Assembly (NCBI GenBank): GCA_016839705.1
Contig: JAEOTR010000023.1
Coordinates: forward strand, 33,144 to 97,143
Length of the DNA: 64,000 nt
Source of the DNA: Promethearchaeota archaeon
GTDB lineage: Archaea > Asgardarchaeota > Lokiarchaeia > Sigyniarchaeales > SOKP01
Direction: 5' to 3'
Each line of letters starts with the position of its first letter. Within the stretch, counting starts at the first letter, position 1. The translations under genes were made by a program, and so were the position numbers. The notes beneath the pieces are model-generated. The model saw nothing but the letters and a program-made list of their open reading frames with translations. It did not search any database and was not told where the DNA came from. Of this stretch, positions 4,253-57,151 are shown piece after piece.

Positions 4253-4357
4253 AATTTTCTACTTTAGCACTAGTTATTATGATCTATAACATTAATGATC
4301 ACATAAAAAAATTATTTCTAGGTAAATCTTTATATAAATAAAGTAAGTAAGTTTCAA

Positions 4358-4533
4358 ATAACCACATAAACAAGCGTTTCCGGGTTCGGATGGGACCGGG
4401 TATTATCCTAAATCACCATGACCGTGAGCGAACTCACAGTTTGTAGTTTCCCACAGATATCAACCGCAGTACTATCTACAACGCGAGAAAGTTTAACTTC
4501 CGGCGCTTTACTTTATGTTATTTATGTGGTTAT
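4358..4533. repeat. Inverted repeats forming a processing stem around the 5S gene
   Basis: ATAACCACATAAA (4358-4370) / TTTATGTGGTTAT (4521-4533), perfect 13 bp; AAGCG (4372-4376) / CGCTT (4504-4508); CCGG at 4380-4383 and 4500-4503. Confidence 0.85.
4378..4497 (-). rRNA. rrf: 5S rRNA, circularly permuted gene (3' half - UUCG - 5' half)
   Basis: Minus strand reads GUUAAAC...UUGUAGAUAGUACUGCGG...CUGUGGGAAACUACAAACUGUGAG-UUCG-CUCACGGUCAUGGUG...ACCCGGUCCCAUCCGAACCCGGAA. The conserved 5S loop C (CCCAUCCGAAC), loop E (AGUA/GAAA) and helix I are all present, but the halves are in swapped order. Confidence 0.9.
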
Positions 4534-35880: not shown

Positions 35881-36174
35881 AGAGTGCTTCAGATTCCTAT
35901 ATTTTAATACTAAAATAATTAATTATATAATTTTAACACTGAAAAAATTAATTGTTTTAAATAAATGATTGTTATAGAGTTATGTCTTAGAATTCCCATT
36001 TCTTTTAGTAGCTCTTTAATTATATAACTAATCCTTTTTTAAAATAAGATATTATAATGTTATTAGAATTAATTTATAAGGTTCTACTCATTTAATATCA
36101 TTAGGATGAAAATTTGTTACAATGTTTAAAATACATTAACAAATTATGAATTAAAATAATTAAAATAAAACCAT

Positions 36175-36290
36175 GCCTCCTGCCTACACCCTGGATTTTT
36201 GTCTTTTGGTAGTGTAAATTTTTACACTCTGATTTCGCCCTCCTCCCCCTATTGTATTTTTGACGCATATTGCGTCCGTTGGCAGGAGGC
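36175..36290. ncRNA. Unannotated structured RNA candidate
   Basis: GC-rich island with terminal stem GCCTCCTGCC/GGCAGGAGGC and internal hairpins AGTGTAAA/TTTACACT and GACGCA/TGCGTC. Confidence 0.5.
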
Positions 36291-36608
36291 TCTCTTTTAT
36301 TTGTTAACTCTTCTTAACCGATTTAATCTCTCCCTTTAGAATTTGAAGGTAATCCACTCTTTATGATGTAATCTTCCCAAAGATTATACATTTATGTATA
36401 AAGCATTAAAATCTGCCACATATCTGGATTACACACGAAAAATGGACGCTAAATTTTCAATATTATTAAAAATTTTACGGTTTTTTAATAATACCGATAC
36501 GAATATAGATATTATTAAAATATTTAAATCATTTCAATGTTTATTAAAATACTAATTTAATTAAAACATACTTTTTTTAATTAAAATATAAAACATGTAT
36601 TGATTATT

Positions 36609-54056: not shown

Positions 54057-54737
54057 TTAAATAAATGTTATATCTTGATATTCAGAATCTCCAATATCTT
54101 TTTTCGCTACACCGAGATCCCTAACTTGCTGATTAAGTTTTAAAACAGCTTCCCTCACAATTTCTTTCTTTTTTGCTCCAGTGCAGACTATGCGTCCTGT
54201 GCTAAAAATTAAAAAAACTGTTTTAGGATCTTGCATTCTATATATAAGTCCAGGAAAAACTTCTGGTTCATACATAGCATACTCCATCACGATAGCAGCC
54301 ATGTTTAAATCAATATTAGTGTGTAGATCCCCAGAAGCTACTATATTCTGAATGGTAATTTCGGGATTGGATACTTTTATGCCTGCCTTCCTGATATTCT
54401 TTACGACTTTGTCAACAACTCGTTCTGCTTCTGCTGCCTGCCTTAATCCTGTCACAACCATTTTTCCCGTTGAGAAAATTAAGATAGTGGCACGTGGTTT
54501 TTCGATACGCATTACTAGGCCAGGGAAACGTTCTGGGTTATATTCTACATCGGCATGACGTCTAGCTATTTGATTGAGATCTATTTTCTCTGTAATCTCC
54601 ACCACAACAGTTGCTACTACATTTTCAATCTTGTAATCTAAGTCGGTTTCAAAATCATATTCCCCTTGGGGTTCTTCACCCTCTTCTTCCATCTCATCTT
54701 CAAAATCATCTTCAAAATCTTTTTCTTCATCGGACAT
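54057..54737 (-). CDS. tbp: TATA-box binding protein with an acidic N-terminal extension
   Basis: IENVVAT, YNPERFPGL, LIFSTGKMVVTG, IQNIVAS, YEPEVFPGLIYR, IFSTGRIVCTGAK. Confidence 0.97.
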   Translation of the reverse strand: MSDEEKDFEDDFEDEMEEEGEEPQGEYDFETDLDYKIENVVATVVVEITEKIDLNQIARRHADVEYNPERFPGLVMRIEKPRATILIFSTGKMVVTGLRQAAEAERVVDKVVKNIRKAGIKVSNPEITIQNIVASGDLHTNIDLNMAAIVMEYAMYEPEVFPGLIYRMQDPKTVFLIFSTGRIVCTGAKKKEIVREAVLKLNQQVRDLGVAKKDIGDSEYQDITFI

Positions 54738-54936: not shown

Positions 54937-55467
54937 TCACTGTGTTTTAGAAATTTTGTCTAAAATTCGTTTTGTCAGCTTAATAAAAGCTTCTTCAACA
55001 TTCTGACCGGTCTTAGCTGATGTTAGAAGTAAATCCGTATTATTCTCTTTAGCATAATTACTTGCTTCCATGTCTGTTATTTTTCTTTGCCCTTCTAAGT
55101 CAGATTTGTTCCCTATTAATAAAATCGGCTGTTCTCCTCTTGTTTCTTTAAAACTTTCAATCCAATCGTTGAGTTTATCAAAAGTTTGCCTATCAGTTAA
55201 ATCAAACATTACCAAGGCACCATTGGCCCCTTCTAAATATAGTTTTCTTAGGGACTTAAAAGATTCCTGGCCTCCTAAGTCCCAGATTTGAGCAGATACA
55301 CCGTTACCATCGACTTCCATGTCCTTTTTTAGTAAATTAACCCCTAACGTTGCTTTGTATGACTCTCTAAATTTATTCTCAATATATCTATATACAAGTG
55401 ATGTTTTTCCAACGTTTTTTTCGCCCAAAAGTGTTATTTTTATTATATACTTAGGTTCTTCTTGCAT
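54937..55467 (-). CDS. Rab-like small GTPase
   Basis: GEKNVGKTS, TLGV, WDLGGQE, NKSD, TSAKTG. Confidence 0.94.
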   Translation of the reverse strand: MQEEPKYIIKITLLGEKNVGKTSLVYRYIENKFRESYKATLGVNLLKKDMEVDGNGVSAQIWDLGGQESFKSLRKLYLEGANGALVMFDLTDRQTFDKLNDWIESFKETRGEQPILLIGNKSDLEGQRKITDMEASNYAKENNTDLLLTSAKTGQNVEEAFIKLTKRILDKISKTQ

Positions 55468-55554
55468 TGCTTATCACATGGCGTATAAACTTTAAATTTT
55501 GTTTATATTCAAAATATAGTGTACAGTTATTAAAAATTATCTAATTCAATTCTA

Positions 55555-56037
55555 TTAATCTTTTTGTGTTAAAACCACCATGAACTCACAAAAATTTTGT
55601 CCCGTTTGCAGACTACACCCAACCTCTTGAGCAAAGCAGTGCTGATCACTTAATTTTTCCACTATTCCTGCTAGTAAACCCGCTTCAAATGAACAAAAAC
55701 TTCCTGTTGCTTTAATTCCTTTTTTTACTAGATCTTTAATGGATGAATGGTCTTTCATTTTCAGTTGAATGACTTCTTGGGTTGCTTCTGTAATTTCAAC
55801 TTCACCAAGGTTAAACTGAGAAATTATGTCTTTTAACTCATTTGGAATTTGATTTATGTCCTTGACCTGTTTAACCTTTAATGTAGTCCCTAATTCATGT
55901 CCAAGATAATAAAAAATCGCTTCAAGTTGATGACCTAAAGCTAATAAGGCCCCAACCTTCATATCTCCAATAGATTTACCATCTTTTAAATTTTTTCTCA
56001 TTTGAGCTAAAATTTTAGAAAGTAATTGTCTGTCCAT
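55555..56037 (-). CDS. V4R-domain protein (Bet3/TRAPP-related fold)
   Basis: FYYLGHELG, FNLG, FCSFEAGLLAG, EVGC...G..FCEF. Confidence 0.85.
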   Translation of the reverse strand: MDRQLLSKILAQMRKNLKDGKSIGDMKVGALLALGHQLEAIFYYLGHELGTTLKVKQVKDINQIPNELKDIISQFNLGEVEITEATQEVIQLKMKDHSSIKDLVKKGIKATGSFCSFEAGLLAGIVEKLSDQHCFAQEVGCSLQTGQNFCEFMVVLTQKD

Positions 56038-56127
56038 AATCTTTCACTTTCCCTCTTGCTTTTTAATATTCTATTTCTTATTATTTTGCTTATTTTTTTT
56101 CAAATTTATTATAATTAACTTGATTTC

Positions 56128-56427
56128 TCATAATTTTACTGATGAGATGAATGCGTATAAAATCGCATCAATTATTTCCTCTTCTGCAATATTTACTGAT
56201 AACTTTTTATCTGCTATTATCAATGTTGGTACTGAAGTTATTCGATATTCTTGAGTAAAGTGTCTATTTTCTTCAAGATCGATAGAAATTTTCTCAATTC
56301 TTAATTTTTTCCCAAACATGGAAATGTTTATTCTTTTTAGCATTTCCGATATAGGAGCACACGGTGCGCAGTGAGTCGATGAAAAAAACAAAATTTTCGG
56401 ATAGCTCTGGTCAACAGCATCATACAT
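56128..56427 (-). CDS. Thioredoxin-like protein
   Basis: CAPC active site and SVPTL cis-Pro loop. Confidence 0.85.
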   Translation of the reverse strand: MYDAVDQSYPKILFFSSTHCAPCAPISEMLKRINISMFGKKLRIEKISIDLEENRHFTQEYRITSVPTLIIADKKLSVNIAEEEIIDAILYAFISSVKL

Positions 56428-56430
56428 TTT

Positions 56431-57000
56431 TTAGGCTTCTTTGTATTTGTTATATAAATTCTTTATTATTGCTTGAAATGCTTCATATACACCTGATCCC
56501 GTTTTAGCTGAAGTTTGAAAATACCCTAAGAAACCTCTTCCTTTCACAATTTCTTGAATTTTTTCATTCTCAGTATCTTCTTCTTTTACTAAATCAATTT
56601 TATTTCCAAATAACACGATAGGAAGGTCTCCTACATGACTTTTAATATCCTCATGCCATTCAGGAATTTTATTGAAACTTTCTTCATCAGTATGGCTAAA
56701 AACAATAATAGCTGCTTTCGAACCCTTATAAAACGTAGGGCGCATGAAGTCAAATTCGCGTTGACCCGCTATATCCCAGAAGAACAATTTACAATTATTT
56801 CCTTCAATATCTTCATCATATTTACTAAATTGTGCTCCTATTGTTTTAATATAATCTTTTTCAAAACTACCTTTGGTATATTTTTTAATTAGGCTTGTCT
56901 TTCCAACGGCTCCATCACCGATGACTATGATCGTCAACAATTATATATTGAAGACAGTGATCTTGAAGACAAACCCTTTTGAAGCATCATCATTTCCCAT
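56431..57000 (-). CDS. Rab-like small GTPase interrupted by a 30-nt insertion (179 aa if spliced)
   Basis: ATG at 57000 gives MGNDDASKGFVFKITV[FNI*LLTIIV]IGDGAVGKTS; WDIAGQ, NKID, TSAKTG. Confidence 0.85.
56927..56956 (-). other. Candidate archaeal BHB/BHL-type mRNA intron
   Basis: GAUC/GAUC 4-bp helix with bulges ACU and AUA, and intron hairpin GUC-UU-CAAU/AUUG-UU-GAC. Contains an in-frame UAA; removal yields AAG AUC ACA GUC AUC GGU (KITVIG). Confidence 0.55.
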
Positions 57001-57151
57001 ATATTTCACTCTGTAGAATTTTATTAAGATTTATTTGGTTATTTGTGTATTAAATTCAAAACCTATAAGTTATATTTTCTTTATTTATTTTTATTTGTTA
57101 TTAATTTATATTAATAATATCAACTCGTTTTAAATATTTATATTGGGATAA

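What the first reader, a model, noticed from the sequence alone, without database searches (positions are those of the whole stretch)
56927..57000. Candidate BHB-type mRNA intron in a Rab-like GTPase gene
Seen: from ATG 57000 the gene reads MGNDDASKGFVFKITV-FNI*LLTIIV-IGDGAVGKT. Paralogues here have FKI(V/T)xxG running straight into the P-loop, so 30 nt with an in-frame UAA are extra. The RNA folds as GAUC(56962-59)/GAUC(56932-29), bulge ACU, intron stem GUC/GAC plus CAAU/AUUG, and a second bulge/loop AUA. Cutting after the second nt of each bulge removes exactly 30 nt and gives AAG AUC ACA GUC AUC GGU = KITVIG, an intact beta1 strand. Established: endonuclease-spliced mRNA introns are rare in archaea, the best-known case being crenarchaeal cbf5. 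Inference: splicing gates expression of a eukaryotic-signature GTPase in an Asgard archaeon. Caveats: the exon-exon helix is weak, a TTG directly after the stop could start a 169-aa protein, and the insert could be a decayed 30-nt tandem duplication.
Basis: partly seen in the sequence, partly recalled or inferred. Interest (0 to 1): 0.85.

Follow-up and report, generated by a model that had tools for sequence, protein, structure and literature searches.

The report
tRNA-type mini-intron in Asgard GTPase gene
A small-GTPase gene of an Asgard archaeon (the group closest to eukaryotes) is broken by a 30-base insert shaped like a tRNA intron; related genomes show it is very probably cut out of the messenger RNA, a kind of splicing that the papers I could search confirm inside only one other archaeal protein gene (cbf5).

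Summary
Observation confirmed. A 30-nt stop-containing insert (56956-56927, minus strand) splits beta-1 of a Rab-like GTPase in a Promethearchaeota (Loki) genome. Within the family, 63 genomes have the gene uninterrupted, 11 have an insert, and none has both. Among 30 distinct insert-bearing copies (two sites, 28-31 nt) the 4-bp bulge-helix-bulge helix is always fully paired. The site-1 stem covaries, exon synonymous codons follow the helix, and the canonical EndA cut restores the conserved strand in 29 of 30. At the frameshifting second site it is the only placement that does. dN/dS is about 0.08. A TTG restart is missing in 22 of 30 copies, and tandem duplication explains at most the origin of site 1. 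The genome encodes EndA with a CSL-like loop and RtcB, and has like inserts in EF-2, IscU, mevalonate kinase and a GTPase paralogue. Best reading (0.9): an EndA/RtcB-spliced mRNA intron of HBh' type. The scan found this kind before on other DNA, including a GTPase gene.

The parts
56957..57000 (-). Exon 1 (44 nt, Met to the first two bases of the Thr codon of beta-1)
   Evidence: Open, conserved at protein level with synonymous variation in insert-bearing orthologues; same N-terminus as uninterrupted orthologues
56927..56956 (-). 30-nt BHB-type (HBh') intron with in-frame TAA at 56943-56941
   Evidence: Absent from 63 family genomes, present at this site in 20 distinct copies; covarying stem
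56431..56926 (-). Exon 2: rest of the Ras-superfamily (Rab-like) GTPase with G1-G5 motifs
   Evidence: Pfam Ras E 3e-45; dN/dS about 0.08 among site-1 copies
56959..56962 (-). Exon strand of the 4-bp central helix H (GAUC)
   Evidence: Lys codon AAG in 20/20 site-1 copies vs 4/24 uninterrupted
56956..56958 (-). 5' bulge ACU; predicted cut between 56957 and 56956
   Evidence: Invariant in 20/20 site-1 copies
56933..56955 (-). Intron hairpin h' (3 bp, 2x2 internal loop, 4 bp, 5-nt loop)
   Evidence: 7 of 9 pairs show two-sided changes; 0/500 shuffles reach the covariation score
56929..56932 (-). Intron strand of central helix H (GAUC)
   Evidence: 100% of cells paired across 17 distinct cassettes
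56926..56928 (-). 3' bulge/loop AUA; predicted cut between 56927 and 56926
   Evidence: Sequence varies between copies while the canonical cut always completes a Thr codon
56938..56940 (-). TTG directly after the stop; start used by gene callers (169-aa product), a possible restart in this lineage only
   Evidence: Called product P0001; in-frame start present in 8 of 20 site-1 copies and 0 of 10 site-2 copies
57006..57011 (-). SD-like GAGTGA ahead of ATG 57000
   Evidence: GT(G/T)A motif at this spacing in 24/24 uninterrupted and 22/25 insert-bearing orthologues; SD role inferred
56128..56427 (-). Thioredoxin-like gene, 3 nt after the GTPase stop (same operon)
   Evidence: Pfam Thioredoxin; syntenic in orthologous loci
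55555..56037 (-). V4R-domain gene of the same cluster
   Evidence: Pfam V4R, weak; syntenic
54937..55467 (-). Second, uninterrupted Ras-family GTPase of the cluster
   Evidence: Pfam Ras E 7.5e-51

Best explanation
The insert is a tRNA-type mRNA intron. Shown: in the pre-mRNA the last exon-1 bases pair with the intron 3' end (4-bp helix), flanked by a 3-nt bulge closed by the intron hairpin and a 3-nt bulge/open loop (HBh' form). Shown: the genome encodes an EndA catalytic subunit with the crenarchaeal-type substrate-broadening loop, and RtcB. Inferred: EndA cuts after the second base of each bulge and RtcB joins the exons, giving the 179-aa GTPase; unspliced RNA would give a 19-aa peptide. 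The intron is most likely a tolerated passenger, one of several in this genome's coding genes, gained, moved and precisely lost repeatedly in Lokiarchaeia. It is not shown to regulate anything.
For: Presence/absence at exact junctions, 63 genomes without and 11 with, never both; syntenic orthologues; 30 distinct inserts all with a 4/4 helix, canonical cut restores the motif in 29/30 and is the unique restoring placement in 10/10 site-2 copies of 28, 29 and 31 nt; covariation; exon codon bias matching each site's own helix; purifying selection on both exons; a second 29-nt BHB insert in the same gene of G081; same geometry in EF-2 (19/19 distinct copies; one moved 6 nt with a matching helix change), IscU (two unrelated hairpins, compensatory helix change) and mevalonate kinase; EndA closest to Aeropyrum alpha subunit with loop and Tyr/His/Lys aligned; RtcB intact. 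PMC5829648 reports that Asgard EndA carries the L1/CSL loop that allows cleavage of HBh' introns.
Against: Site 1 lacks an outer exon helix, and one copy (L012) folds weakly (constrained 0.0 kcal/mol). One copy (L114) would splice to Asp in place of Val. Five placements restore the protein at site 1, so the register there rests on structure. All 20 site-1 inserts are in frame. Kin are not independent, so the shuffle counts overstate significance. No EndA beta subunit was found by my searches.
Confidence: 0.9

Rival explanations
1. No splicing: ribosomes stop at TAA and restart at the adjacent TTG 56940, making a 169-aa GTPase whose beta-1 comes from the insert's 3' end.
For: TTG follows the stop directly and the insert-encoded residues are hydrophobic, so they could stand in for beta-1; 8 of 20 site-1 copies have such a codon.
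Against: 12 of 20 site-1 and 10 of 10 site-2 copies have no ATG/GTG/TTG between stop and P-loop, and two put Arg in that strand; exon 1 and its SD-like motif stay conserved; it does not explain the helix or the exon codon bias. It may still occur as a leak in this lineage.
Confidence: 0.04
2. Translational recoding (stop read-through, or ribosome hopping between the matched Val codons 30 nt apart) yields the protein without RNA cutting.
For: All site-1 and EF-2 inserts are exactly 30 nt and in frame; a Val codon is repeated across site 1; a hairpin is present.
Against: Site-2 inserts are 28, 29 and 31 nt and need a codon joined from both sides; some site-1 copies carry two stops; EF-2 has no matched codons; a 4-bp exon-intron helix at a fixed 3-nt bulge spacing is not required by recoding.
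Confidence: 0.03
3. A decayed 30-nt tandem duplication or other inactivating insert (pseudogene), or an assembly error.
For: A 13-nt stretch repeats at period 30 with 10 matches, partly because the helix is a palindrome.
Against: The insert matches its flanks at only 15/30 and 10/30; it recurs in independent assemblies; dN/dS is about 0.08 at dS about 1.5; no uninterrupted copy of this orthologue exists in those genomes; site 2, EF-2 and IscU inserts show no duplication. A short target duplication may be how site 1 arose.
Confidence: 0.02
4. Add-on to the best reading: splicing is a regulatory gate that couples GTPase output (and the coupled thioredoxin gene) to EndA/RtcB activity.
For: Three separate sites in one GTPase gene plus a paralogue and EF-2; the stop is kept in all site-1 copies; site 1 is a relaxed substrate that might splice slowly.
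Against: Most orthologues have no insert; at least 6-7 state changes on the tree; unrelated genes carry like inserts.
Confidence: 0.15

Closest known systems
cbf5 pre-mRNA intron of Desulfurococcales and Sulfolobales (Watanabe 2002; Yoshinari 2006; Yokobori 2009, PMC2738675)
   Same: Short insert in a coding sequence, relaxed BHB, cut between second and third bulge residue, lineage-specific precise loss.
   Different: cbf5 is one gene, one site, one ancient gain, with splicing shown. Here it is an Asgard lineage, three sites in one gene, several unrelated genes per genome, patchy within a genus, and splicing not yet observed by me.
HVO_1309 5' UTR BHB intron of Haloferax volcanii (PMC7714728)
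   Same: EndA acts on an mRNA.
   Different: Lies in the UTR and does not break a reading frame.
Non-canonical tRNA introns of Asgard archaea (bioRxiv 10.64898/2026.10.13.758758)
   Same: BHB/HBh' geometry, repeated gains, same enzyme.
   Different: That study covers tRNA genes only; 'mRNA' does not occur in its text.
IRE1/HAC1-XBP1 unconventional mRNA splicing in eukaryotes (from my own knowledge, not tested)
   Same: A short frame-breaking intron removed by an endonuclease and joined by a tRNA ligase (RtcB in animals; XBP1 intron 26 nt).
   Different: Different nuclease and dual stem-loop signal, and it is a proven regulatory switch; no such regulation is shown here.

Membership tests
Archaeal BHB (EndA-spliced) intron | 4-bp central helix between exon 1 and intron 3' end | tested here: met
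   4/4 pairs in 30/30 distinct copies
Archaeal BHB (EndA-spliced) intron | Two 3-nt bulges with cut after the second base giving the uninterrupted sequence | tested here: met
   Restores the motif in 29/30; unique placement in 10/10 site-2 copies
Archaeal BHB (EndA-spliced) intron | Intron-side helix h' | tested here: met
   Covarying stem at site 1; 89% paired but not above shuffles at site 2
Strict hBHBh' motif | Exon-side outer helix h | tested here: not met
   No contiguous pairs at site 1 (HBh' form); 5-7 of 8 positions pair at site 2
Archaeal BHB (EndA-spliced) intron | Host encodes EndA able to cut relaxed motifs, and a ligase | tested here: met
   EndA alpha with CSL-like loop and catalytic residues aligned to Aeropyrum enzyme; RtcB; beta subunit not found
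Archaeal BHB (EndA-spliced) intron | Spliced RNA or excised circle in vivo | not tested
Archaeal BHB (EndA-spliced) intron | Cleavage by EndA in vitro | not testable with these tools
   Bench experiment
Ras-superfamily small GTPase | Ras domain with G1-G5 motifs | tested here: met
   PF00071 E 3e-45; motifs visible
Eukaryotic Rab family | RabF motifs and C-terminal prenylation cysteines | tested here: inconclusive
   No C-terminal Cys motif in the translation; RabF motifs not scored; 'Rab-like' only
Group I / group II self-splicing intron | Catalytic RNA core of hundreds of bases | tested here: not met
   30 nt; no Rfam match in the window

The most novel reading that the evidence does not exclude
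Lokiarchaeia routinely splice protein-coding mRNAs, including the canonical EF-2, with the tRNA endonuclease and RtcB, and their ~30-nt introns are mobile at the RNA level: they move between nearby sites, between paralogues and between lineages by re-insertion at sites that can pair with the intron's 3' end. This would be a spliceosome-independent exon-intron system in the closest prokaryotic relatives of eukaryotes.
Probability: 0.45. Interest if true: 0.9.

Novelty: new variant of a known kind. Interest (0 to 1): 0.78.

Why it matters
The papers I could search confirm splicing inside an archaeal coding sequence only for cbf5 (PMC2738675, PMC7714728). Multi-gene, multi-site, polymorphic mRNA introns in Asgard archaea would put routine mRNA splicing by a tRNA endonuclease and RtcB in the lineage closest to eukaryotes, a possible forerunner of XBP1/HAC1-type splicing. 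It also has a practical effect: 24 of 127 homologues retrieved lack the normal N-terminus in public databases, and the 17 such entries whose loci or length I could judge fit truncation at the insert. Asgard GTPases and EF-2 are therefore being mis-annotated. Intron gain and loss can be studied within one genus.

Tried and rejected
Cluster look-up found no full-length protein identical to the predicted spliced product; the 179-aa member P0121 comes from a genomic, uninterrupted relative. A de novo genome-wide BHB scan with shifted-cut nulls showed no enrichment: it has low power and missed the mevalonate kinase insert, so it gives no count per genome; its true hits were recognised by protein motif and confirmed in relatives. 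Folding energy of the 5' region is not significant. A longer-range exon-exon helix predicted is not kept in all insert-bearing copies and was not used. Site-2 covariation does not exceed shuffles. Alignment of the window to relatives (98% covered) found no other coding BHB insert in the window. Eight paper searches found no report of Asgard mRNA introns; subscription journals are mostly not searched.

Full report
Observation. The gene starts at ATG 57000 on the minus strand and meets a TAA at 56943-56941, seven codons before the P-loop glycine. Removing 56956-56927 gives a 179-aa frame. Its energy alone is weak evidence (z -1.7), but only about 0.5% of random 30-mers would give this geometry at the site. 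Homologues are annotated Promethearchaeota / Lokiarchaeota. The protein is a Ras-superfamily GTPase, first gene of a GTPase, thioredoxin, V4R, GTPase cluster that is syntenic across the genus.

Orthologues. Of 135 genomes of the family, 63 match the uninterrupted beta-1/P-loop pattern and 11 carry an insert in the orthologue; none has both. In the genus the numbers are 43 and 9 of 54. Adding metagenome and assembly loci gives 30 distinct insert-bearing copies. Twenty sit at the window's site and are all 30 nt with a stop. Ten sit 2 nt downstream, are 28, 29 or 31 nt, and shift the frame; two of these are in a 52%-identical paralogue next to EF-2, one in this genome. G081 has a further 29-nt insert about 55 codons downstream in the same gene.

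Structure is under selection. All 30 copies form a full 4-bp helix with a 3-nt bulge and an intron stem of at least 2 bp. The canonical cut restores the conserved strand in 29; at site 2 it is the only placement that does, in 10 of 10. At site 1 the helix is paired in 100% of cells, 7 of 9 stem pairs show two-sided changes, and no shuffle of 500 reaches the covariation score (relatedness inflates this). The exon side follows: the Lys codon is AAG in 20/20 site-1 copies against 4/24 uninterrupted ones, and Ile-Thr is ATC-ACA in 10/10 site-2 copies against 1/24 and 2/24. Each site thus fixes the synonymous bases its own helix needs. Site 1 has no outer exon helix (HBh'); site 2 has one.

The gene is alive. 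Median dN/dS downstream of the insert is 0.08 (site 1), 0.07 (site 2) and 0.06 (none), at dS about 1.4-1.6; exon 1 and its SD-like motif are kept. Twenty-two of 30 copies have no start codon between stop and P-loop, so the TTG restart cannot be the general route. The insert is not a 30-nt tandem copy (15/30 and 10/30 to its flanks), though a 10/13 repeat leaves a short target duplication open as the origin of site 1.

Machinery and other genes. The genome has one EndA catalytic subunit, best matched to the Aeropyrum alpha subunit, with the CSL-like loop and Tyr/His/Lys aligned, and an intact RtcB. PMC5829648 states that Asgard EndA has this loop and that it permits cleavage of HBh' introns. 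The same geometry interrupts the only EF-2 gene of the assembly. That insert occurs in 20 of 161 class genomes, and the BHB cut is a restoring placement in 19/19 distinct copies, unique in 18; 93 family genomes lack it. By the criterion of PMC6143161 (His kept, next-loop Arg changed to Thr) this is canonical aEF-2 rather than the paralogue. One genome has the homologous hairpin 6 nt upstream with a matching change in the helix. IscU has unrelated 27- and 30-nt hairpins at one site in two genomes with a compensatory helix change, and mevalonate kinase has a 31-nt one.

History. On a tree of the sequence downstream of the cassette, site 1 needs 7 changes (6 forced by strong branches) and site 2 needs 3; uninterrupted copies nest among interrupted ones. 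Two near-identical site-1 inserts (28/30) lie in hosts at dS 0.9 in separate clades. Repeated precise loss and lateral spread both fit, and I did not separate them.

Mechanism. Shown: geometry, conservation, exact presence/absence, enzymes present. Inferred: EndA cleavage, RtcB ligation, translation of the spliced mRNA.

Prior knowledge. Splicing within an archaeal coding sequence is confirmed for cbf5 only in the papers read; a 2026 preprint covers Asgard tRNA introns but not mRNAs. This scan has already noted the same kind of insert in at least 37 genomes, including a Rab-like GTPase, and some notes report spliced environmental RNA for other genes. I did not check those RNA claims and do not count them as support. 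Verdict: real, very probably an EndA-spliced mRNA intron (0.9), a new variant of the cbf5 kind; interest 0.78.

Noticed in passing
G000:C82:11187-11216 (+), locus L042: 30-nt stop-containing BHB insert in switch I of the only EF-2 gene in the assembly; domain IV motif fits canonical aEF-2, not aEF-2p. Present in 20 of 161 class genomes, in one moved 6 nt upstream.
   Followed up: yes
G000:C82:13869-13897 (-), locus L042: 29-nt frameshifting BHB insert in a GTPase paralogue, at the same position and of similar sequence as the site-2 insert of the window gene's orthologues; suggests transfer between paralogues or an old shared intron.
   Followed up: partly
G000:C85:74326-74352 (+), locus L043: 27-nt BHB insert with stop in an IscU/NifU gene; an unrelated 30-nt hairpin sits at the same site in G089.
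   Followed up: partly
   Followed up: partly
L044 (G081), about 55 codons after the P-loop: Second 29-nt BHB insert in the same GTPase gene, making a two-intron mRNA.
   Followed up: partly
window about 4350-4520 (-): 5S rRNA-like sequence not detected by Rfam; relatives G109 and G022 carry 31- and 30-nt BHB inserts at different positions in it.
   Followed up: no
window about 36170-36300 (-): GC-rich structured RNA closed by a terminal helix, possibly RNase P RNA (by eye; no Rfam hit); relative G002 has a 29-nt BHB-shaped insert near 36244.
   Followed up: no
L087 8860-9070 (-), contig SDBS01003791.1: 38-nt frameshifting insert in the V4R gene of the same cluster; no simple 4/4 helix found, possibly relaxed or nested.
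   Followed up: partly
window 54937-57000 (-): GTPase, thioredoxin-like, V4R, GTPase cluster conserved across the genus, upstream of TBP (54057-54737).
   Followed up: partly
L086 (LAZR01016577.1): A marine-sediment metagenome contig with the LAZR prefix (from memory, the Loki's Castle dataset) carries the site-2 insert.
   Followed up: no
G000 whole assembly: ARAGORN finds only 18 tRNA genes, 12 of them with introns, suggesting many tRNAs hidden by non-canonical introns.
   Followed up: no
L114 745-781 (+): Site-1 copy whose canonical splice product would have Asp instead of Val in beta-1; the one exception among 30.
   Followed up: no
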